NCBI GenBank assembly: GCA_964016885.1
Contig: OZ024743.1
Location: 128,030,001 to 128,094,000, forward strand
Direction of reading: 5' to 3'
Length of the DNA: 64,000 nucleotides
DNA from: Eledone cirrhosa
Lineage: Eukaryota
This document shows, piece after piece, positions 15,762 to 62,760 of this stretch. A program made the position numbers and the translations under genes. Position 1 is the stretch's first letter; each line of letters starts with the position of its first letter. The notes beneath the pieces are model-generated. The model did no database searches and had not been told where the DNA came from. It saw only the letters and a list, made by a program, of their open reading frames with translations.

Positions 15762-15815
<54 letters not shown>

Positions 15816-16017
15816 ATATTTGGGGAGGGTCATATTTGCGTAATATTGCCAGAATTAATAACAGAACACACTCACTGTTTGGTTGGTTTTCGCTTCTCGC
15901 TGTCTTTTATATATATATATCTGCGATCTAACTTACTCGGTCCTCAATGTTGCCATTGACTGACCGGCGGTCAAAAATAATACAGATACAATATAGACAA
16001 ACACATATATATATAGT

Positions 16018-16060
16018 TTACATAAATCTTTCGTTGCACATCTGCAACATCGTCAGTGGT
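16018..16060 (-). ncRNA. Minimal type I hammerhead-like motif in PLE 3' region
   Basis: Minus strand: ca CTGACGA t gttgca gatg tgcaac GAAA gatt TA tg. Core and helix II are good; helix I is only 2 bp. Confidence 0.6.
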
Positions 16061-16327
16061 GTTATATTCATTGTTCCTCCTGTTGTGTTGTATGTCTACG
16101 CCATTTTTTTTTGTTCAGTCTGTCTATATATTTATTTATTTATTTGCTTGTTTGTTTATCTTATTTTATTTTGTCTTCTTTGCGCATGCGTTTGCGTGTG
16201 TGTATAGTGTTATGTGTGATGTGTGACTAGTGTGTATAGTGTTGTCTGCTGGGTGACTAGTGTGTGTTTATGTGCTTGTGTATGTATTTATTTATCTTAT
16301 TTTATTTAATTTAATTTACTTATTTAT

Positions 16328-17890
16328 TTATACTTCTCTTAGGTCAGTGTTGTTTGTTTGGGTGTTGTTGTTGTTCCACTCATTCTTTCTGTTTAGCTTT
16401 GGTCTTCTAATTTCTATTTCACTGGCCTCTCTGATTTGCCTATCTGCTGGGTCATTCCTATGTTTAGATATTATTCTAATTTCTATGTTGTCTATGTTAC
16501 CGTCATGATGTTGTCTAGCATGTTCGTATAGTACTGACCCGTTTTTTCGTCCTTTTAGTTCCCCCCAGTGTTGGTCTATCCTTTCACCTATGCTACGAGC
16601 TGTCTCACCTATGTATGTTGTTGTCGTGTTTCTGCAAGTACCCTCTGTACATCTTATGCTATAGACTACGTTTCTAGTTTTACAGTTTATCCGGGGGTTC
16701 ACCTTACATATGATACATTTCCTATTGGTACAGTGGGTTTTCTTAAAAGGGTAGGTTTTGCTGATCAGGGATTTTATGGTGGTTCCTGGCTTTTCTACCA
16801 CCTTTATTTTTAAGTGGGTCTTTCTCAGGGCCTTTCTACACTGGTTAGCTAATTTCCCTCCAGGGGTGGCGTCCACAAACATGACACTCTGATATCTCTG
16901 GTTGTCGTACCATGATGTGGCCTTCCCTATCTTATGTCTAGCCCTATCTAAGCTATTCCATGATTTGCTCCTGTATAGTGGGCAAATTCCTTTCATGTCC
17001 AGTTCTATGAGGGTCTTATACTTTTCCATGGCTCCTTCGTATACTCTGACTCTGTCTCTTTGGTTGTAGCCAGAGAACTGCATGCGGTTGATGAAGTGTT
17101 GGATGTGTCCTTCCATTTCTGTTGGGTCGCACATGCTGGACACATTCTTCATCACTCGTACCAAATCTGCGATCAAAATATTAAACTTAGCACTACTGGA
17201 CATTGCTGAGTTTTTGAGTATCAGGTATTTGGAGGCCATGGGTTTAGCATAGTGTGAGTGGAGAATTTGGGCTCTCTCGTCTATAGTGTTAATCCAGAGT
17301 TCTGTGTCTAATACAGGTAGTCTATTGTTAGGGTGTTTGGAAGGGAAGTCTATAGTTACAGTTATACTCTGGTGTATGGAATTAGCTATCTGCTGGATGC
17401 TTTCCATCGTGCTACGTTCTAAATCAAACTTGTTAGTGCTCTCTAGTGGGGGTGTTCTTATAACTATATTGATATCGTCTACATAACGAGAGTACATGAT
17501 GAGGTCTATGGAGCTTTCATTAAGGAGATCTTTAAGTCTCCTTTCCCACCATACCATGAAAAGGTTGGCAACATCGCCAGCTATGCTGACGCCGATGGCT
17601 GCTCCCTCATTTTGGGTGTAGATTTTCTCATTGAACTTAAATATGTGGCCCTTTAGGGTAGTTTTGATACTAGCCCCTATTGCATGTGCGACCATTTTTC
17701 TTACCTGATCAGTGTTTTGGGGGGTCCGTATAGCTTTGGTCCACCCAATCCACCTTCCTATGGGAGTCTTTTTAGCCATTGAGGTTATGGTGGGGGGTCT
17801 ACCTCTTATAGGTCTACTAGGGCAGAAACATCTAAGGTCATGGCTGTCTAGGTAGTCAGTGTCGTAGGTAAGTCTAAGTAGGAGGCCCAG
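16328..17890 (-). CDS. Penelope-like reverse transcriptase plus C-terminal GIY-YIG endonuclease (uninterrupted, 5'-truncated)
   Basis: [22 protein letters not shown], Cys linker (CTNRKCIIC...C), NVVYSIRC...[33 protein letters not shown]. The frame stays open upstream of the listed Met to the (TA)n edge ([10 protein letters not shown]...[15 protein letters not shown]). Confidence 0.95.
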
Positions 17891-27342: not shown

Positions 27343-28380
27343 GTGAAAAATTGAACGGGAACAAAACAGAGAGGCAGTACGAACAAAGGTTTATTAGTTT
27401 CACGCTCTTGAGAGTGGAATATATATATATATATATATATAAAGTGTTAAAACGATCAAATTTTAGTTTAGAACATTTATTTGCTGACAATAGGGAATGT
27501 CGAAACATGTTACTAAAATCCTAGTCATTTAGAACATTTAGGGTACATATTTGTTGTTGGTGTCATAGGTAACATGTGGATAGTCAGGAGTTAAAAAGAT
27601 GTTCTGCTTGAGAGAACACAATTACAGGCAGCACTGGTTGATGGTGTAAAAGGTATAAGTGAAAAGCACAAGCAAAAAAAGCCAAAAAAATACAGGCAAA
27701 AAGTTATAAGAAAGGAAAATTGGTGTACAATGCAGGAGTCAATACAGTAAATAAGGCATGTATGAGGAAAGAGTTATAATGCAGTTGAAATAAACATATT
27801 TTGTGTGGGGTGTTAAGGCATGTTATAATTGTTATAAATGTTTAAGATAGTGTGTAATTTGTTAGAGAGGCATGTGATGATAATGCAGGTATTTGTTATG
27901 TGAGGTGTAGTGCAAAGTACGTGATAGAGTTGGGTATGTGATTTTCATTTGAGTGTTTTTGTGTTGTAGTTCGTATGTATGTGTATATGTTGTTTGTAAC
28001 TCACAGCTATTAACCATGGGATTATTTTGAGTCGTTTATAGTCAATAGGTGTTTGTTTGTTATGGGTGTTTGTTTTTTATCTACAAATTATTTTTTCTAG
28101 GGTTTGTATTAACCGTTATTAAGCTGTTGGTAAACTGTTAGGTTTGTATTTTATCCGTTATTAAACTGTTCGTAAACCGTTGGGTAGCTTAATTTTATGA
28201 GTTTACATTGTACACGAAATTTCCTTGCTTATAACCTTTTTGCCTGTATTTTTTGCTTTTTTTTTTTGCTTGTGCTTTTCACTTATACCTCTTACACTTT
28301 CAACCAGTGCTGCCTGTAATTGTGTTTTCTCAAGCAGAACATCTTTTTAACTCCTGACTCTCCACATGATACCTATGACA

Positions 28381-28670
28381 CCAATTCTAATTTTCAATTT
28401 CTGCTGGACCGGCGACCGCTCTGTGTAATCAGTTCCTCATTATTACTGGAATTCTATAAGAATCCAACACGCATAATTTTCAGCAAACAGGAGGAGTAGT
28501 GAGCTTGGATAAGTACCAAAAAGTACGAAACAGAGCTCTGTCAGTTTATCTCCCCTGTTTGCTGAAAATTTAAATAAGTGACATTGTCACTATTTTAAAA
28601 CAATAGCGTATGGTCTTCAAAATGCTTTTAATTAAGCATACAGTGTATTGCAAGATACACTATATATACA

Positions 28671-28672
<2 letters not shown>
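28381..28672 (+). mobile_element. Single diverged monomer of the retrozyme-like family
   Basis: Collinear blocks shared with the 311 bp repeat: TTTCTGCYGGACCGGCRACCGCTCT, CAGTTCCT, ATTCTATAAG, ATAGCG, GGTCTTCAAAATG, CATACAG. Confidence 0.8.
28500..28548 (+). ncRNA. Variant hammerhead (UGGAUAA core, U3-A8), GUC site
   Basis: tgagct TGGATAA gtac caaaaa gtac GAAA caga gc tctg TC agttta, enclosed by a 17 bp stem (28475-28570). Confidence 0.75.
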
Positions 28673-28758
<86 letters not shown>

Positions 28759-31519: not shown

Positions 31520-32212
31520 ACAAAGAGCTTTATCGCTCTACATGGCTGAATACAAGAAATGTAAATCTGAGCTTTTCAAATATTAATAATAATATTCGAT
31601 TCATTTGCAATTATGCAAACAGCCTCTTTAAGCCATGTAAGTAGAATGACCCGTCATTCTTACTCTTGTGTTGGCATATAAACAGAACTGAAGACACTAA
31701 TGTTTCTGGGTGATTACCCTTCATCAGGACCGTATACTGCTTCCCTGCCAACTGTCAGAGCTAACTATTTTTTAGTTGTTTAACTATGGCAAAGCCGGCC
31801 ATTAATCGCTCGTATACATGGAACTGACTGGCCTATCTGCTGATATGCAAATCTGGCTGATCAGTGGAGCTGCTAATATGCAGATCTGACTGAACAGCCA
31901 GTCTGCTAATATGCAAATCAGGTCGATCGGTCACTGTATATTCCATAAAATATCATATATTTTCACTAACTCTGACAGTTGGCACGTAAGCAGTATACGG
32001 TACTGATGAAGGGTAATCACCCAGAAACATTAGTGTCTTCAGTTCTGTTTATATGCCAACACAAGAACAAGAATTATGAGGTCATTCTATTTACATGGCG
32101 TAAAGAGGCTGTGTGCATAATTGTAAACGAATCGAATATCATTATAATTGCTGGCCTTGTGCCAAAAGTAGAAACAATTATTAATATTCGAAAAGCTCAA
32201 ATTTACATTTCT
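31519..32212. mobile_element. Fold-back element with HHR-like cores in both arms and a triple octamer spacer
   Basis: Arms about 31540-31772 and 31966-32212 each carry CTGATGA agggtaatcaccca GAAA ca ttag tg TC (helix I poor). The spacer has three approx. 33 bp repeats with ATGCAAAT/ATGCAGAT. Confidence 0.75.
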
Positions 32213-32378
32213 TATATATATATATATATATATCAAGTAAGAATATTTTCGAAACAGCGAGCGGGTTTGAAATTATAAATGTAAGCTATCGCCGTATTTT
32301 GACTAAAGAAATTAAAGAAAATTATTTAGCCTGATAGTGGGGTTAAGAACCCTCGGAGAAATGGAAAAAGATGAGTAT

Positions 32379-32449
32379 TGACGTACATGGGAGTCGAACC
32401 CACATCTTTGGTTATCCAGACCACTGTGCTACCATTACACCAACACATC
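32379..32449 (-). tRNA. tRNA-like cloverleaf (Gln-like D arm, GGA in the anticodon position) inside a repeat element; probably not a translating tRNA
   Basis: GATGTGT TG GTGT AATGGTA GCAC A GTGGT CTGGATA ACCAA AGAT GTGGG TTCGACT CCCAT GTACGTC A. 71 nt, four stems pair, TTTTT about 10 nt downstream. Confidence 0.7.
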
Positions 32450-32650
32450 ACCTGTCTTTTTCCATTCGAATTAGAAGCTATAATCTTAGAAACTGTAAAT
32501 GTCAAGTAAGAATATTTTCCATTTCTCCGAGGGTTCTTAACCCCACTATCAGGCTAAATAATTTTCTTTAATTTCTTTAGTCAAAATACGGCGATAGCTT
32601 ACATTTATAATATATATATATATAGAGAGAGAGAGAGAAGATATTTATAT

Positions 32651-33868
32651 ATGAATATAGACATAGAATATTCGAAAATATTCTGTATGTTTATAATAAA
32701 CATTTTGAAGACCTAATCGCTATAGAATAGAATACGTCACGTATTACAATTAGATTCTCGATAAAAGCAAGGGAAGTAAATCTACGCGTTTCATTCTCGT
32801 TAGAAATCGTCAGGACTACATATCCAGTGCTTTTATCGAGAATGACACAGCTAGAGACTTATAGAATACTTAGCTGTGTACAGGAACTGGTTTGAAAGAG
32901 CGGTTGCCGGTCCGGCAGAAATTAGAAATTGGAATAAATGCTCTGAAATAGCGATATATATGTGAATATAGACATAGAATATTCGAAAATATTCTGTATG
33001 TTTATAATAAACATTTTGAAGACCTAATCGCTATAGAATAGAATACGTCACGTATTACAATTAGATTCTCGATAAAAGCAAGGGAAGTAAATCTACGCGT
33101 TTCATTCTCGTTAGAAATCGTCAGGACTACATATCCAGTGCTTTTATCGAGAATGACACAGCTAGAGACTTATAGAATACTTAGCTGTGTACAGGAACTG
33201 GTTTGAAAGAGCGGTTGCCGGTCCGGCAGAAATTAGAAATTGGAATAAATGCTCTGAAATAGCGATATATATGTGAATATAGACATAGAATATTCGAAAA
33301 TATTCTGTATGTTTATAATAAACATTTTGAAGACCTAATCGCTATAGAATAGAATACGTCACGTATTACAATTAGATTCTCGATAAAAGCAAGGGAAGTA
33401 AATCTACGCGTTTCATTCTCGTTAGAAATCGTCAGGACTACATATCCAGTGCTTTTATCGAGAATGACACAGCTAGAGACTTATAGAATACTTAGCTGTG
33501 TACAGGAACTGGTTTGAAAGAGCGGTTGCCGGTCCGGCAGAAATTAGAAATTGGAATAAATGCTCTGAAATAGCGATATATATGTGAATATAGACATAGA
33601 ATATTCGAAAATATTCTGTATGTTTATAATAAACATTTTGAAGACCTAATCGCTATAGAATAGAATACGTCACGTATTACAATTAGATTCTCGATAAAAG
33701 CAAGGGAAGTAAATCTACGCGTTTCATTCTCGTTAGAAATCGTCAGGACTACATATCCAGTGCTTTTATCGAGAATGACACAGCTAGAGACTTATAGAAT
33801 ACTTAGCTGTGTACAGGAACTGGTTTGAAAGAGCGGTTGCCGGTCCGGCAGAAATTAGAAATTGGAAT
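32651..33868 (-). repeat. Tandem array of 3.9 x 311 bp hammerhead-containing units (retrozyme-like)
   Basis: Unit starts at 32653, 32964, 33275 and 33586; copies look identical. HHR at 32776-32819, 33087-33130, 33398-33441 and 33709-33752 (gtagtc CTGACGA tttctaacgagaat GAAA cgcg TA gatttac). Confidence 0.92.
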
Positions 33869-34010
33869 ATATACATATACATATACACACATATATACAT
33901 ATGTATACATGCATACACACACATACACGTATATATATGTGTGTGTGTGTGTGTATGCATATATACTTGAGAGGGATTCTTCTCTAAAGACCTTCTGCTG
34001 TCCAGCTCGC

Positions 34011-36030
34011 CTATATATATAAAACAGAGAATCTCTGTCTGTCTGTCCGATCACTAAAACTCGAGAACCACCCAATCGATTGTTTTCAAACTTTACACAT
34101 GTAATACTTATGGTCCTGTGAGTGTTTGAGCAAAAATTTCAAATTTTCAATGCCCTACGGACCGCATTAGGCGATTTAGCGATCTCTCTCTATAACTCTT
34201 AGTCTTTCTCTTTTTAGATAGATACATAGATATAACGTTGCACCCTTAGGTGACCCCCCAAAGAGGATGTCCTCATCCTCGGGTCACCGATCCACCCGCC
34301 GGCCATCCGCTCCACCATCAGGTCCAGGCTTCAAACGCTCCAGACTCTGACGAGCCGACTGGGCTTGATTGACGGCCACCCAGCTCTCTTTCTGCTGAGG
34401 AACTGCTTCGCCATGCCGAAGCTCCACTATACACTCCGCAGCGCTCCGTGCTACACCCAGACATCTCTCCTCGCTGACCTCGATACTTGTATCCGAGCAG
34501 AAGCCAAGGGGATATGCAACGTCAAGTTTGACGAAATAGGGTGGCAACAGGCCACTTTACCTGTCAGGTATGGCGGCCTTGGCCTCCGGTCCCCGATCTC
34601 ACTACTTTGCCGGCGTATCTTTCGTCGGTAACCTCGTGCCGCGTCCTCGTTAACAGGGTTCTTCAAAACACATTGAACCCTCTGTGTTCAGAGAACGTGA
34701 GGCCGCCTGTGAGACGTGGAACCGGCTGGGACTTAGCCCAGTAGACGTCCCTCCTCCTTCTCCCCTGTTGACGTTAAGTCCCCTCAACGCACTTGGGATG
34801 CCATCCAGTGCAGCCTGCCCTCAGACAGGCTCACGCGCCAACTCGACCAGCACCGCCTTGCTTGTTTCCGTGCGGCCTCCAAATCCCACAGTGGTGACTG
34901 GCTCCATGCTCTGCCCTCCTTCTCCACTGGCACGCAGCTAGACAACCATAGCCTGCGAATCGGCGTTTCCCTGAGGCTCGGCCTCCGGATTTGCCAGCAA
35001 CACCAATGTCGCTGCGGTGCCACCGTGGACTCTTTCGGCCTCCACCCGCTTTCCTGTCGCCACAGTGCCGGCCGCATTCCACGCCATGCTGCCCTCAACG
35101 AGGTCATTAAGCATGGCTTGGACGCTGCAGGCTTCCCTACCCAGCTCGAGCCGGTGGGGCTGGATCGAGGGGACGGCAAAAGGCCAGATGGCATGACCCT
35201 CTTCCCGTTCCGCGGTGGCAAACCCCTCGTCTGGGATGCCACTTGCACCGACACTTTCTGCAGCTGCAACCTGGTGCAGTCTGCGACTGACCTAGGTTCT
35301 GCTGCGCGCCGGGCTGAGGGGGCTAAACTCCTCAAATACCGGTCGCTGTCCGACAGGTTTGCGGTCGTACCCCTGGCAGACTTCTGGTGTCCTCGGCCTC
35401 AGGGCTACTTCCTTACTCACCACCATAGGCGCTGAGCTAGCCAGCCGCAGGTGTGAGCACCGCGATTTGGAGTGGCTTTTCCAGCACATCCCCCTTGCCG
35501 TCCTCCGAGGAAACACCTTCTCCATTCTGTCCGCCGGGGCTGTGGCCCCATCGCGTACCGTTGTAGTTGTTGTATACAGATATTAACTCATCAATCCCAT
35601 TGTCCTAATCCAGAACACAATTATATATCTCCCAAATAGAGAATATTTAATTATATCTGTCTGCATTACGACATTATGACGTAGCTGTGTGTGTGTGTGT
35701 GTGTACATATGTATATATAGTGTGTGTATATATATATATAGTGTGTAACGTTTTTCGAAATATTTACTTCTGCGTTCACAGATTGATTTTCTTATTCTAA
35801 TTTCAGAAGATCCCGTTAAGGGTGAAAGCAGCGATTCTTTGCTTAAACTTTAATCTGTTATTTTTATATATATATATACAATTATATATTCATGTACAGA
35901 TATATTTGCATACACAATAACAAAATATAAATAAACGTATTTATTTCACGAGGCTCAATAAGGATAAATATATATCAAATATATAAGAACCCTAGACCAA
36001 ATCCCGAGCAACGCCGGACCATTCTGCTGG
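34011..36030 (+). mobile_element. Non-autonomous Helitron with cargo
   Basis: The 5' 235 bp match the 5' end of the 59411-60959 element; 3' hairpin CCCGAGCAACGCCGG then CTGG. Confidence 0.75.
34245..35590 (+). pseudogene. CRE-clade-like non-LTR retrotransposon 3' part (RT thumb, CCHC knuckle, restriction-like endonuclease)
   Basis: ILGSPI, LLRNCFAMPKLHYTLRS, QATLPVRYGGLGLR, SGDWLHALP, CRCGA..H..SC, RHAALN, EPVGLDRGDGKRPDG, LVWDATC. GC-rich island with frameshifts. Confidence 0.88.
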
Positions 36031-36084
36031 TATATAATAAAATAAAACAAGGACGAGTGGTTACTCCTTCATTACGTTTATTGG

Positions 36085-36175
36085 CTGGTGACGCGTGTTT
36101 CGCCACCGATCAGTTCAAGGTTCGATCTGTATCGATCTAGCCCGACTCTGTAATCCACGGCTCGTCAGACACCTT
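36085..36175 (-). ncRNA. Hammerhead-like motif with long helix II insertion
   Basis: ggtgt CTGACGA gcc..(approx. 55 nt)..ggc GAAA cacgcg TC acc; helix I imperfect. Confidence 0.5.
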
Positions 36176-36218
36176 TTAGTGATAACTCCCTCTATATATA
36201 TATATTAGTGATAACTCC

Positions 36219-36268
<50 letters not shown>

Positions 36269-36397
36269 TCCATTATGGTGTGCGACTTATAGCCCTATTA
36301 GAATTCAATGTAGAGTAGATATATGTAATTATCCTATCAAACGAAGCAAAGCGAAATTTGATTTTGTGGAAAAGTAGTATCTTATTACAGATTTTTA

Positions 36398-36795
36398 ATA
36401 AACAACCCGTATATTATTCAATATACAATACATACATATATGAGTATACCGCTATGCTGAAGCACCAATACAATTTCTTTTAAAGCCTGGCCGGCTATCG
36501 CTCCGTATGAAAATGAGTTTCATCAGCTCATGAAAATAAGTAAAAATCTATAAGATTCTAGCTTATTTTAACCTCAGTCTAAGTGGGGAGATATGTAGTC
36601 TTGATAAACGCAAAAGAGCGAGAAACAACGTATTGATTACTTCGGCATGCTTTTGGTGAGGGCTGGTGTGTGACGTTCGTTACAACCTTAAAATATTTAT
36701 AGCGAAAGGCCCTCAAATGTTTTTCATAAACAATCCGTATATTCTTCAATATACAATACGTACATATATGAGTATACCGCTACGTTGGAGCCCCA

Positions 36796-36800
<5 letters not shown>
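36398..36800 (+). mobile_element. 1.2 copies of a 328 bp diverged retrozyme-like unit
   Basis: 75 bp direct repeat at 36398 and 36726, blocks collinear with the 311 bp unit, and an HHR-like motif at 36595-36640 (gtagtc TTGATAA acgc aaaaga gcga GAAA caacg TA tt gattac). Confidence 0.75.
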
Positions 36801-36835
<35 letters not shown>

Positions 36836-36838
<3 letters not shown>

Positions 36839-37983
36839 AATATAGACATAGAATATTCGAACATATTCTGTATGTTTATAATAAACATTTTGAAGACCTA
36901 ATCGCTATAGAATAGAATACGTCACGTATTACAATTAGATTCTCGACAAAAGCAAGGGAAGTAATCTACGCGTTTCATTCTTATTAGAAATCTTCAGGAC
37001 TACATATCCAGTGCTTTTATCGAGAATGACACAGCTAGAGACTTATAGAATACTTAGCTGTGTACAGGAACTGGTTTGAAAGAGCGGTTGCCGGTCCGGC
37101 AGAAATTAGAAATTGGAATAAATGCTCTGAAATAGCGATATATATGTGAATATAGACATAGAATATTCGAACATATTCTGTATGTTTATAATAAACATTT
37201 TGAAGACCTAATCGCTATAGAATAGAATACGTCACGTATTACAATTAGATTCTCGACAAAAGCAAGCGATTAGGTCTTCAAAATGTTTATTATAAACATA
37301 CAGAATATGTTCGAATATTCTATGTCTATATTCACATATATATCGCTATTTCAGAGCATTTATTCCAATTTCTAATTTCTGCCGGACCGGCAACCGCTCT
37401 TTCAAACCAGTTCCTGTACACAGCTAAGTATTCTATAAGTCTCTAGCTGTGTCATTCTCGATAAAAGCACTGGATATGTAGTCCTGAAGATTTCTAATAA
37501 GAATGAAACGCGTAGATTACTTCCCTTGCTTTTGTCGAGAATCTAATTGTAATACGTGACGTATTCTATTCTATAGCGATTAGGTCTTCAAAATGTTTAT
37601 TATAAACATACAGAATATGTTCGAATATTCTATGTCTATATTCACATATATATCGCTATTTCAGAGCATTTATTCCAATTTCTAATTTCTGCCGGACCGG
37701 CAACCGCTCTTTCAAACCAGTTCCTGTACACAGCTAAGTATTCTATAAGTCTCTAGCTGTGTCATTCTCGATAAAAGCACTGGATATGTAGTCCTGAAGA
37801 TTTCTAATAAGAATGAAACGCGTAGATTACTTCCCTTGCTTTTGTCGAGAATCTAATTGTAATACGTGACGTATTCTATTCTATAGCGATTAGGTCTTCA
37901 AAATGTTTATTATAAACATACAGAATATGTTCGAATATTCTATGTCTATATTCACATATATATCGCTATTTCAGAGCATTTAT

Positions 37984-37990
<7 letters not shown>
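36836..37990. repeat. Second retrozyme-like array, 310 bp units, 1.4 copies inverted against 2.3 copies
   Basis: Orientation switches at about 37266. HHR at 36961-37003 (-), 37478-37520 (+) and 37788-37830 (+): gtagtc CTGAAGA tttctaataagaat GAAA cgcg TA gattac. Confidence 0.92.
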
Positions 37991-38064
<74 letters not shown>

Positions 38065-38151
38065 TGTATATATACATATATGTTTATATATATATATATA
38101 TAGTAATAATAATAAAATTGAAGACTAAAATCCAAAGAGGGCTCGATAAGG

Positions 38152-38783: not shown

Positions 38784-38976
38784 GGAAGAGAGTCAGGACT
38801 CCGACGATTGAGCTCCGGCCGTTCGACAGCTAGATCCGAACCGGATCTAGCTGTCGAAACGGGTGGAGCTCAGCCGTCGGGGTCCTGACATTCTTCCTAT
38901 TACCCACTCTACTACCCTAAGTATTGAGTAGTCTACTGCGTTATTGTCCACTTGGTATCTTACCACACCCTCTTTG
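38784..38976. mobile_element. Hairpin-plus-tail short element, copy 2
   Basis: Imperfect approx. 55 bp arms (38784-38897) plus the conserved tail. Confidence 0.85.
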
Positions 38977-48286: not shown

Positions 48287-50133
48287 GCACACATACACAT
48301 CCATACATACAATACATATATACACACATACACACAAACATATTCACGTACATTGACCCGCTTACACGCACACACATAAAAATAAAAATGTAAAAAACAT
48401 AGATATAAAAACACAGATATAAAAACACACATACATACACATATATATACACGCACGCACGCGCGCATACGGAGGCGTTCGTGTACATATACAGAACGTA
48501 TACACACATAAAGACGCTCAGACACATAGATACAGGGTGTAAAGCAGCCTTATGAATAAGTCAGTACAAATATAAAAATATAAAATTGACTGCGAAATAA
48601 CAGAAAATATCTGGAGTGGAAAACGCAAGTGACTTTCGTAATCAGGTAGTAAAGAAAATAGGGAAGTAAAAAGTGGAAAGTGAAGATATTAGGTAAGTGA
48701 ATTGAAGGATAAAGGGGGGGGGGGGTTACTGGTGGATGTGAAGTAAAAATAAAAATAAAAATAAAATTAATAATAAGGTTAAAAATGAAAGTAAATCAGA
48801 AAGAGTAGTCTTTAAAGAGAATAATTTAAGTGAAGAATAAGAGCTTATGGAGGATAAGTATCTGAAAGTGAGTTAAGTTTATATGAGCTGGAAAGCAAGT
48901 ATGATTTCATGTGTGGGCAACTGGTGAAAATTTCTGTCTTTGTATTTAGGCAGGTTTTTGGTGATTTAAGGTTTTGTAAAATCCAATATTTTTCATTTAT
49001 GCAGAGTGTGCATTTTCTTGTTCCTCTTGCATATTCTTTAGATTGGTTCAAAATTGACCAATCCAATTTATATTGGATACCTTGGTCTTTCAAATCCCAT
49101 ATTCTGCTAGCCAGAGCTGTTGTGAATCTTTTTTCTGGATGTCGAAAGGATGCGACATGTGAGTAATAACGCGTTTTGAACTTGTCTTGTGTCATACCCA
49201 CATATCGTTCACTGGTGGCTGGTTGGTTGTTGCTGATGGTTGTCACTTTAGCCGCATATACAATGGCTTTGGTGTTGCATTTACCTTGTAATGGGCATTC
49301 ACTTTTGACTCTACAGGAGCAATTTTGATGTTCTCTAGGTGATTTTTTGTTGATGATATAAGATTTAATAGGGGGACCGCAGGAGTAGCTAATTTTGACA
49401 CAGTTTCTATTAAAGATCTTATAGTATCTATGTGTTCTAGGGAAAATGTTTATCTAAGAGCTCTAGGAATTTTTTGCCTACATTAGTTTTAACTGCTAGA
49501 GAGTAGGGGGTGTGAACCAGATTATTTTTCTTTTCCTATTTTTATGTTTAAAAGAGTTAGTATAGTTGGGTATGTATTTAATCGGTTCGCTAAATCCGCT
49601 ATTTAGGAGGGCTTTATTATAGTAGAGGGATGCCTTATTGAAAATAGCTTCTGAGGAAGAGAGGGTGGAGATCCTACGGCTAATATTAGGGAATAAGGTT
49701 TTTAAAAACTATAGGCGGATGGCAAGAGGCTTTATTTATATATTTTAAATTTTCATTAGGTTTATGGTATGGTTTATAAGAAGCAGTAGGTAAATCTAGG
49801 TTTATATCTAGGAAATTAACATTAGAAAGGTTAGTGTCAATAGTAATTTTAAGATTAAAACTAGCAAAGGTTTTTATTAAGTCTTTCCTTAATCTATCTA
49901 AGTTATGGCCTATGGTGGTATGGGAAAGTATTAGACCATCGTCGCGATAAAGTCCAAAAATATGGTTAGGGAATGTTTCTTTAAGTGTGTGTAGGAGGAA
50001 TAGGCCGACTAAATCACAAACATCAGCACTATGAAAAGAGCCCATTGAGACATCGAATGGGCTCTCTGGGTTAGATATTTTTACCCAAGTGTCATTATCA
50101 GTAAAGAGTAGAGTGTTTCTAGCGTGCAAGATG

Positions 50134-50138
<5 letters not shown>
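47361..50138 (-). mobile_element. 5'-truncated Penelope-like element (Hydra-clade-like) in (TA)n, frameshifted
   Basis: RT: FDVSMGSFHSADVCDLVGLFLL, GLYRDDGL, VNFLDI, PYHKPN..YIN..SCHPP. Endonuclease: CSCR..CPLQGKC..IVYAAKV..YVGMT..FKTRYYSH..CTLCINEK..LN..E..SCPH. Approx. 1.4 kb 3' UTR. Clade assignment is from memory of motifs. Confidence 0.92.
47461..47538 (-). ncRNA. Type I hammerhead (CCGACGA core, U4C) at the PLE 3' end
   Basis: attgccttgt CCGACGA a cgaat..attcg g GAAA cc ttt gg TA atgaggtaat; 10 bp helix I with three G-U pairs. Confidence 0.78.
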
Positions 50139-61900: not shown

Positions 61901-62760
61901 TCTATAGATTATAGATACTTCCAAAAAATTCTTTCTTTTTGTTTATAGCGTTCTTTCCTCAATACACAAATGACAAATTCTTGAGAGAGCCATATTTCGG
62001 TATGCGTGCGCTTTCGAAATCGTTCTCCAAGAGATTGAATAGTCAATATTATTGTCTTTTAAGTACCAAATTAGATATGAACGTGATGTTGAGAATTTTT
62101 TTGTCCGAACTATTAAATGTGTGTTTATGATTATACCAGCGTTCCTTAAATTTTATAGAAGTGGCTCCTATATAGTTAAATAATTTATCTCTAGTTTTTA
62201 CTGTGCATTTGTATACTAAGTTTTTATCTAGACAATTATTCTGTAAAGGGCAACTTAATTTGTTTCTACAGTTACATTTTCTAGAGTTGTTGTCTATAGG
62301 AACGGTTGGGTTATTATTAGTATTGTTATTAGTAATATTATTATTGCTATTATGGTTTATTTGGGTTGGGATTAATTTTAAGTTTCTATTATTAATTCTA
62401 TTAATATTTTGTGCTAATGTTCATAGTATTAGAGTAAGATAGTTTGATAGTATGCCTGTTAAAAATAGAGTGGTATCTATGGGATATAGGAAAACACTTA
62501 TCTAATGCTTTGAAACATAGGTTTGCTAAAGGTGTTTTCATTCCTAATGAGATTGGAGGAGAGTACAAAATTATATTTCTAGTTCTAGTTTTTTTGTTTG
62601 ATTTATTATTTAGGTTAATTTGCTTATTATTAATATTATAGTAAATTTTAGGATGATTTTGCATGCTATTATTATCTATGTTTCATTTTATTCATCTAAC
62701 CAGCTCTATGTAAAGCATCATTGTAATATTCTGCCTTATTATCAAATATATTTTTATTGA
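58955..62760 (-). mobile_element. Decayed Penelope-like element (Hydra-clade-like), probably with a long 3' UTR split by a Helitron
   Basis: 61900-62660 encodes RTRNIILYSPP..CFPISHRYHSIFNRHTIKLSYS and CNCRNKLSCPLQNNC..LVYKCTV..YIGAT..FKERWYNH. A family A HHR lies at 58997-59058 on the same strand. Continuity across the Helitron is inferred. Confidence 0.7.
59411..60959 (-). mobile_element. Non-autonomous Helitron with approx. 700 bp cargo
   Basis: Both ends match the 23374-23877 element (5' TCTATATATAAAACTGAGG, 3' CCCGTGCAACGCCGGG hairpin); internal duplications and a GC-richer insert at 60010-60720. Confidence 0.85.

What the first reader, a model, noticed from the sequence alone, without database searches (positions are those of the whole stretch)
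32651..37990. Retrozyme-like tandem arrays: 310/311 bp units, each with a hammerhead, that look like rolling-circle products
Seen: two arrays (32651-33868 and 36836-37990) of a non-coding, hairpin-rich unit. Each monomer holds a type I HHR with a palindromic minimal helix III (GAAAC-GC-GUA) inside a 16 bp enclosing stem. Copies look identical within an array, but the arrays differ at about five fixed sites. One difference (A to G in the enclosing stem) leaves a G-U pair only on the ribozyme strand; others fall at N7 or in the helix II loop. Known: metazoan retrozymes and newt satellite 2 are short tandem HHR repeats that give monomeric circular RNAs, and minimal HHRs cleave as dimers. Inference: each array was reverse transcribed from one circular RNA, probably by PLE machinery. 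I do not know of a description in cephalopods.
Basis: partly seen in the sequence, partly recalled or inferred. Interest (0 to 1): 0.9.

Follow-up and report, generated by a model that had tools for sequence, protein, structure and literature searches.

The report
Two-armed hammerhead retrozyme, likely RNA-edited
A 310/311-base non-coding repeat carrying a predicted self-cutting 'hammerhead' RNA sits in about 17,000 copies as back-to-back tandem arrays inside TA microsatellites; it is likely pasted by a Penelope-type retrotransposon enzyme from a small RNA circle, and an excess of array-wide A-to-G changes suggests RNA edits are likely being written back into the genome.

Summary
Observation confirmed, with one correction: array 2 is two inverted arms, not a plain tandem. 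The unit is a young non-LTR retrozyme with a type I hammerhead; 17,185 exact core copies genome-wide. Of 103 loci, 92 are head-to-head inverted with 3' ends in (TA)n; 84 of those 92 have one short end and one end about 26 nt longer. This is the Penelope-like (PLE) one-sided tail, also seen on an intact PLE family here. No pLTR homology identifies the partner. Sequence variants are array-wide across both arms (76 of 77 loci). Array-wide recent changes are A>G on the ribozyme strand in 16 of 31 events versus 9 of 146 single-unit changes (p about 1e-8; 8 of 22 sites, p 3e-4), mostly in stems, with a UAG hotspot. This fits A-to-I-edited monomers read repeatedly, i.e. circles. Three loci instead fit an ordered linear template. 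Cleavage, circles and editing are untested; Rfam gave no hammerhead hit. New variant of a known kind.

The parts
32652..33869 (-). Array 1: one-armed, 3.9 x 311-bp unit; 3' end at the short site (unit position ~140), 5' end near unit position 155-160 in TA/CA-rich DNA
33709..33752 (-). Type I hammerhead, array 1 (predicted cut between 33716 and 33715); same motif at 33398-33441, 33087-33130, 32776-32819
   Evidence: core starts 33746, 33435, 33124, 32813; spans derived from the unit numbering
36828..37266 (-). Array 2, short-ended arm, 1.4 x 310-bp unit, hammerhead at 36961-37003
37265..37989 (+). Array 2, tailed arm, 2.3 x 310-bp unit, hammerheads at 37478-37520 and 37788-37830
37964..37989 (+). 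26-nt one-sided tail (unit positions 141-166), PLE-like
   Evidence: tail described for PLEs
36796..36835 (.). (TA)n target, left of array 2
37988..38102 (.). (TA)n target, right of array 2
28379..28680 (+). One unit of an older sister retrozyme family (about 320-bp unit, U3:A8 hammerhead core), ending in (TA)n
   Evidence: (score 97, 0 of 200 shuffles)
16328..17890 (-). 5'-truncated copy of a very young autonomous PLE family (1217-aa ORF elsewhere); candidate, unproven, supplier of RT and endonuclease

Best explanation
The 310/311-bp unit is a non-coding repeat with a type I hammerhead motif that has recently spread as head-to-head tandem arrays into TA microsatellites; it is predicted to be transcribed, self-cut as a dimer and closed into a monomer circle, which is likely A-to-I edited and then likely reverse-transcribed by a Penelope-like enzyme from both cut DNA strands. 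Steps: (1) multimeric transcript, dimeric cleavage through the palindromic helix III, ligation (inferred from axolotl and mussel retrozymes). (2) A PLE endonuclease would nick both strands of (TA)n; one 3' end primes at the unit's AU-repeat (position ~133-140), the other about 26 nt further 3'. The ends are shown; the enzyme is inferred. (3) Each primer runs round the template for 0.1-27 units and the two 5'-truncated cDNAs join by microhomology or filler (anatomy shown, chemistry inferred). (4) Inosines on the template would be fixed as G in every unit of both arms (pattern shown, cause inferred).
For: Hammerhead anatomy. 8 of 15 tested pairs change on both sides between this family and its sister, including C3:G8 to U3:A8 (essentially two lineages). 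All 14 array-wide variants in the ribozyme and enclosing stem keep pairing or lie at N7/loop II (my reading); 3,763 units restore a Watson-Crick pair at the helix II base. A U.U there is known in an active axolotl retrozyme (PMC7229834). 92 of 103 loci minus/plus, none plus/minus; 84 of 92 one short plus one tailed end, never two alike; 182 of 190 outer ends run into TA. The intact PLE family shows the same short/tailed ends in TA. 40 haplotypes in 102 loci, both arms concordant in 76 of 77. Inner ends are not enriched at the cleavage site (5 of 182, 4.7 expected), and either arm can be far longer. A>G is 16 of 31 array-wide tip events vs 9 of 146 single-unit changes; A>G:T>C 16:2; 15 of 16 at A:U stem pairs; none of 8 sites has a 5' G. 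The UAG site recurs on 5 backbones and in 840 units.
Against: No cleavage, circle or editing data exist here. Rfam finds no hammerhead. No significant similarity between the unit and the 3' regions of four PLE families (64, 146, 7 and 94 of 200 shuffles reach the sense score); the tail is 26 nt here versus 45-60 nt in the youngest PLE. L310, L326 and L356 carry variants at the same index from the outer end in both arms, which a single circle cannot give. Absence of fixed changes from the 12 core bases is not significant (P=0.28). Template switching between haplotypes could inflate A>G event counts. 8 of 9 frog retrozyme dimers did not cleave in vitro (10.64898/2026.07.22.740005). The computed lowest-energy fold of the array-1 module mispairs the core.
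Confidence: 0.65

Rival explanations
1. Same element and PLE machinery, but the usual template is a linear multimeric transcript of a homogeneous source array, primed twice near its 3' end; circles are rare or absent.
For: Mirrored order from the outer ends in L326 (haplotype switch after two units in both arms), L310 and L356. A transcript reading into flanking (AU)n could hand on the exact tailed end (1,006 exact copies). Homogeneous sources give homogeneous daughters.
Against: New variants become fixed in every unit again and again (40 haplotypes), which needs a monomer bottleneck. A>G is enriched among array-wide but not single-unit changes, whereas editing of a multimer would be patchy. 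138 of 160 testable non-fixed placements are not mirrored, though many may post-date insertion. L303 is not mirrored.
Confidence: 0.22
2. The A>G excess reflects selection for stem-preserving G.U wobbles plus recombination of a few old changes, not ADAR editing.
For: A>G at A:U pairs keeps pairing only on the ribozyme strand; sites 277, 260 and 21 recur and could be shuffled by template switching (L326 shows switching).
Against: C>T at G:C pairs is equally tolerated and commoner among single-unit changes (20 vs 9), yet gives 1 site versus 7 (34 paired C, 56 paired A). The distinct-site test still gives p=3e-4.
Confidence: 0.3
3. A dispersed satellite amplified at the DNA level (slippage, unequal crossover, extrachromosomal DNA circles) or an assembly artefact; the hammerhead is a relic.
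For: Tandem homogeneity is typical of satellites; no RNA evidence.
Against: Fixed head-to-head polarity, paired short/tailed ends, shared haplotype across inverted arms, strand-specific A>G. Contigs of run X1 show 11 other arm-to-arm joints (X1 may be the source sample).
Confidence: 0.04
4. The inverted arm arises by self-priming fold-back copying of the first cDNA or of an antisense template, as proposed for rotifer PLEs (PMC3846280).
For: Mirrored variants in three loci; 13 of 91 junctions overlap by more than 10 nt at hairpins.
Against: Neither arm class bounds the other: short-ended 1.2 vs tailed 27.3 units (L294), 19.1 vs 3.3 (L295); Spearman 0.28. The A>G bias points to the ribozyme strand as template.
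Confidence: 0.09

Closest known systems
Metazoan non-LTR retrozymes (Cervera and de la Pena 2020, PMC7229834; parts 2-4 of 6 and passages read, supplement unreadable), especially axolotl Rtz_353 with HHR_Amex2
   Same: 150-450-bp low-GC tandem unit, type I hammerhead, two-pair helix III, U.U at the helix II base, no ORF, co-occurring PLEs; RNA editing was raised there as one explanation of mussel circle heterogeneity.
   Different: Main text has no 'inverted', 'microsatellite' or 'cephalopod'. Here: systematic two-armed insertions with one-sided tail, TA targeting, array-wide A>G bias; expression and cleavage not shown.
Vertebrate non-LTR retrozymes as PLE derivatives (Li, Clavereau, Pollet 2026, 10.64898/2026.07.22.740005; parts 1-3 of 5 read)
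   Same: Tandem hammerhead units proposed to use PLE enzymes.
   Different: Their link is pLTR homology and co-occurrence, with local tandem amplification; no mollusc class among the sampled taxa as described. Here no pLTR homology was found, and the link is insertion anatomy.
Penelope-like elements, EN+ (Craig et al. 2021, 10.1101/2021.04.23.441226; Arkhipova et al. 2013, PMC3846280; Cervera and de la Pena 2014, PMC4209133; passages read)
   Same: Inverted 5'-truncated copy, head-to-head, 30-40-bp tail on one end, microsatellite bias, palindromic-helix-III hammerheads.
   Different: No RT/GIY-YIG ORF; the whole element is a short unit repeated up to 27 times per arm.
Newt satellite 2 (via PMC7229834 passages); L1 twin priming and hepatitis delta amber/W editing (both recalled, no call)
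   Same: Dimeric hammerhead monomers; two primers giving an inversion; ADAR editing of a UAG in a paired circular RNA.
   Different: In L1 the two arms are different parts of the RNA; here both start within 26 nt of the same site. The edit here would be fixed in host DNA.

Membership tests
Non-LTR retrozyme | Type I hammerhead in each unit | tested here: met
   7 of 7 core-bearing units in the window by my descriptor; covariation. Rfam models did not match.
Non-LTR retrozyme | Short (150-450 bp) low-GC tandem unit, dispersed | tested here: met
   310/311 bp, 108 of 311 G+C; 17,185 cores; many chromosomes.
Non-LTR retrozyme | No coding capacity or LTR structure | tested here: met
   No ORF of 100 aa within the arrays other than frames running off into simple repeats; 103 loci consist of unit sequence bounded by TA. 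PBS/PPT not searched separately.
Non-LTR retrozyme | Target-site duplication | tested here: inconclusive
   Both flanks are (TA)n, so a duplication cannot be read.
Non-LTR retrozyme | Self-cleavage | not testable with these tools
   Needs in vitro transcription.
Non-LTR retrozyme | Expressed as monomeric circular RNA | not testable with these tools
   Only indirect genomic evidence.
PLE-mobilised element | Head-to-head inversion with tail on one end, microsatellite target | tested here: met
   92 of 103; 84 of 92; 182 of 190.
PLE-mobilised element | Homology to the pLTR of an autonomous PLE | tested here: not met
   Four PLE 3' regions tested, none convincing; 73 PLE-centred loci screened, hits were separate insertions. 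Many PLE families remain untested.
Autonomous PLE | RT plus GIY-YIG ORF | tested here: not met
   Unit is non-coding.
ADAR substrate | Strand-specific A>G in paired RNA, 5' G avoided | tested here: met
   Genomic footprint only; neighbour preference recalled; 8 sites are too few to test it alone.
ADAR substrate | A-to-G mismatch of RNA versus same-animal DNA | not testable with these tools
   Needs stranded RNA reads.

The most novel reading that the evidence does not exclude
A self-cleaving RNA circle is A-to-I edited by host ADAR and then rolled into the germline by a Penelope-type enzyme primed from both nicked strands 26 nt apart, so RNA edits become heritable, array-wide DNA alleles that drive the element's evolution; thousands of arrays form a genomic record of germline editing and of the unresolved PLE integration mechanism.
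Probability: 0.45. Interest if true: 0.78.

Novelty: new variant of a known kind. Interest (0 to 1): 0.6.

Why it matters
How PLEs make their tandem/inverted insertions and one-sided tails is stated to be unresolved, and rolling-circle reverse transcription of retrozymes by PLEs is a proposal without insertion-level evidence in the text I read. This young family gives well over 1,000 clean insertions of a 310-nt, synthesizable template with two defined priming sites, making both questions testable in vitro.

Tried and rejected
Rfam: only a tRNA at gathering score, no hammerhead at E<=10. RNA evidence: no RNA holder listed. Runs X4, X5, X6 (three other organism labels, kind unknown) each hold one 340-nt contig with 5 differences; they show the unit occurs there, not that it is an RNA circle. 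Partner search: pLTR homology to four PLE families not found. A 550-bp element sharing 25 of 28 nt with the hammerhead core (1 of 200 shuffles) was followed upstream in 60 search loci and 7 long stretches without reaching an ORF of its own. Pfam does not recognise the 1217-aa PLE ORF or the window fragments; its PLE identity rests on RT/GIY-YIG-like motifs and weak BLAST similarity to a Pfam-positive PLE (E 5e-10). Template jumping between linear monomers rejected: inner ends not enriched at the cut site and arrays not haplotype-mixed. The LINE-like piece between the arrays (34254-35435) was considered as partner and dropped: no shared anatomy was tested or seen. Core conservation test not significant. 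Lunse et al. 2017 is not held; seen only as cited in a review passage. Literature searches for prior description: (listings only) found no cephalopod retrozyme paper, no twin-primed retrozyme and no ADAR write-back in retrozymes; subscription papers and supplements (PMC7229834 file, bioRxiv files) were not visible and may bear on this.
Full report
Observation. Two arrays of one unit are present. Array 1 (32652-33869) has 3.9 units of 311 bp, identical but for one edge base. Array 2 (36828-37989, 310 bp) is two arms in opposite orientation whose 5' ends (ribozyme sense) meet at 37265/37266 and whose 3' ends run into (TA)n. Each core-bearing unit has a type I hammerhead: 6-bp helix I (one bulge in the 311 form), 4-bp helix II opened by U.U, a self-complementary helix III (duplex -7.5 kcal/mol) and a 16-bp enclosing stem. 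The arrays differ at six sites. The unit folds better than 100 of 100 shuffles. Rfam does not recognise the ribozyme. Unit positions below count from the base after the predicted cut.

Is the ribozyme real? An older sister family (window 28379-28680; 3,877 search candidates, about 95% identity; tandem spacing 318-322) keeps the layout with other letters. In an alignment of 18 selected haplotypes of this family and 6 sister copies, 8 of 15 in-register pairs change on both sides, including the core pair C3:G8 to U3:A8; this is two lineages, so the shuffle values are not probabilities, and helix I was left out because it was misaligned. Within the family all 14 array-wide variants in the ribozyme and enclosing stem keep pairing or fall at N7 or loop II (my reading). 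3,763 units have A-U in place of U.U. The axolotl HHR_Amex2, with U.U at this place and a two-pair helix III, cleaves 22% as a monomer and better as a dimer (PMC7229834). Against: no fixed change in 12 core bases is unremarkable (P=0.28); the lowest-energy fold of the array-1 module mispairs the core; 8 of 9 frog dimers did not cleave.

Genome-wide anatomy. An exact 19-nt core pattern has 17,185 matches, reversed control 0; exact short and tailed ends number 1,294 and 1,006, so roughly 1,500-2,700 loci (my estimate). I analysed 103 loci: 18 from the best hits, 16 consecutive loci, 7, 60 chosen for having a tailed end, and the 2 window arrays. 92 are minus/plus, none plus/minus, 11 one-armed (some cut by gaps or my fetch limits). 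Of the 92, 84 have one end at 136-141 and one at 155-174; none has two alike; the other 8 include five cut by a gap or fetch limit. In the samples not selected on ends the count is 32 short/tailed pairs and none alike. 182 of 190 outer ends continue in TA; junctions show 1-10-nt overlap in 49 of 91, more in 13, none in 7, filler in 22. Inner ends are spread evenly (p=0.15) and not enriched at the cut site. Contigs of run X1 hold 11 further arm-to-arm joints, but X1 may be the source sample.

Link to PLEs. An inverted 5'-truncated copy, a 30-40-bp tail on one end and microsatellite bias are described PLE features. The genome has a very young PLE family: 83 of 83 scored hits identical to the window fragment at 16331-17890, full ORF 1217 aa. 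Its copies end in TA either short or with a 45-60-nt tail, one of each in inverted pairs. Other intact PLE families carry hammerheads, one also with U.U. None of four 3' regions is convincingly homologous to the unit, so PLE mobilisation is inferred from anatomy and the partner is open.

Template. Leaving out one old locus (L270), 102 loci (931 units) give 40 haplotypes fixed across all units; both arms agree in 76 of 77 informative loci. Repeated fixation needs a one-unit bottleneck. After excluding 10 backbone positions of uncertain polarity, array-wide changes are A>G on the ribozyme strand in 16 of 31 site-by-backbone events (8 of 22 sites) versus 9 of 146 single-unit substitutions (Fisher 1e-8; 3e-4 by site); A>G:T>C is 16:2; 15 of 16 are at predicted A:U pairs, against 2 events at one site for the equally tolerated C>T. 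The top site, 277, is a UAG; it recurs on 5 backbones, in 840 units, as whole arrays. None of the 8 sites follows a G (ADAR preference recalled). In L303 the tailed arm switches from A to G at 277 after four units and the other arm is all G. Editing of a long multimer would leave patchy single-unit A>G, which is not seen; an edited monomer read many times gives this pattern. I therefore infer a circular monomer as the usual template. Against: L326, L310 and L356 show the same variant order from the outer ends in both arms, which needs an ordered linear or multimeric template or coordinated switching; 138 of 160 testable placements are not mirrored (two-armed short/tailed loci with an anchor only), but many may be later mutations. 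Simple fold-back is unlikely because either arm can be many times longer.

Comparison and novelty. It meets the testable features of metazoan non-LTR retrozymes and is not an autonomous PLE. The 2020 paper's main text has no mention of inversions, microsatellites or cephalopods and proposes PLE-driven copying of circles without insertion evidence in the parts read; the 2026 preprint links retrozymes to PLEs by pLTR homology in frogs. Ten searches listed nothing on this anatomy or on ADAR write-back in retrozymes; unseen supplements may. The scan's own notes, consulted after my analysis, already describe this family and its two-armed form in this genome and similar elements in others; look-ups by sequence and for fixed editing gave nothing. 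Verdict: real, new variant of a known kind, interest 0.6; the editing write-back is the most novel part and is unproven.

Noticed in passing
window 15800-17890 (-); L080-L109, L140-L146: Very young autonomous PLE family: 83 of 83 scored hits 100% identical, 44,827 candidates, 1217-aa ORF with an Asn-rich insert, partial tandems and inverted pairs in (TA)n; not recognised by Pfam.
   Followed up: partly
window 28379-28680 (+); L050-L079: Older sister retrozyme family, about 320-bp unit, U3:A8 core, 12-nt palindromic helix III, same inverted TA-targeted anatomy.
   Followed up: partly
L151:1-315; L153-L219: About 550-bp non-coding, non-tandem element whose hammerhead shares 25 of 28 nt with this family; also two-armed with a longer tail in (TA)n; no ORF linked.
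   Followed up: partly
window 31586-32145: Another head-to-head inverted, hammerhead-like element between TA tracts.
   Followed up: no
window 32272-32611: tRNA-derived element (Rfam tRNA 32379-32449, minus) within a 97-nt perfect inverted repeat, directly beside array 1.
   Followed up: no
window 38790-38900: About 110-nt near-perfect hairpin between TA tracts; similar hairpins seen in L143 and L181.
   Followed up: no
window 34254-35435 (+): GC-rich broken non-LTR retrotransposon piece with a restriction-like endonuclease motif (recalled), no Pfam hit.
   Followed up: partly
window 20610, 22539, 27126, 30258, 46303, 51555, 53615, 59050: Eight further hammerhead-like motifs from at least four other families; 51555/53615 form an inverted pair.
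   Followed up: no
window 48845-50138 (-), 62049-62420 (-): Fragments of other PLE-like ORFs (clade assignment recalled, untested).
   Followed up: no
L326, L303, L271: Rare chimeric or re-started arrays (haplotype switch in both arms; mid-arm A>G switch; doubled junction) that record template switching.
   Followed up: yes
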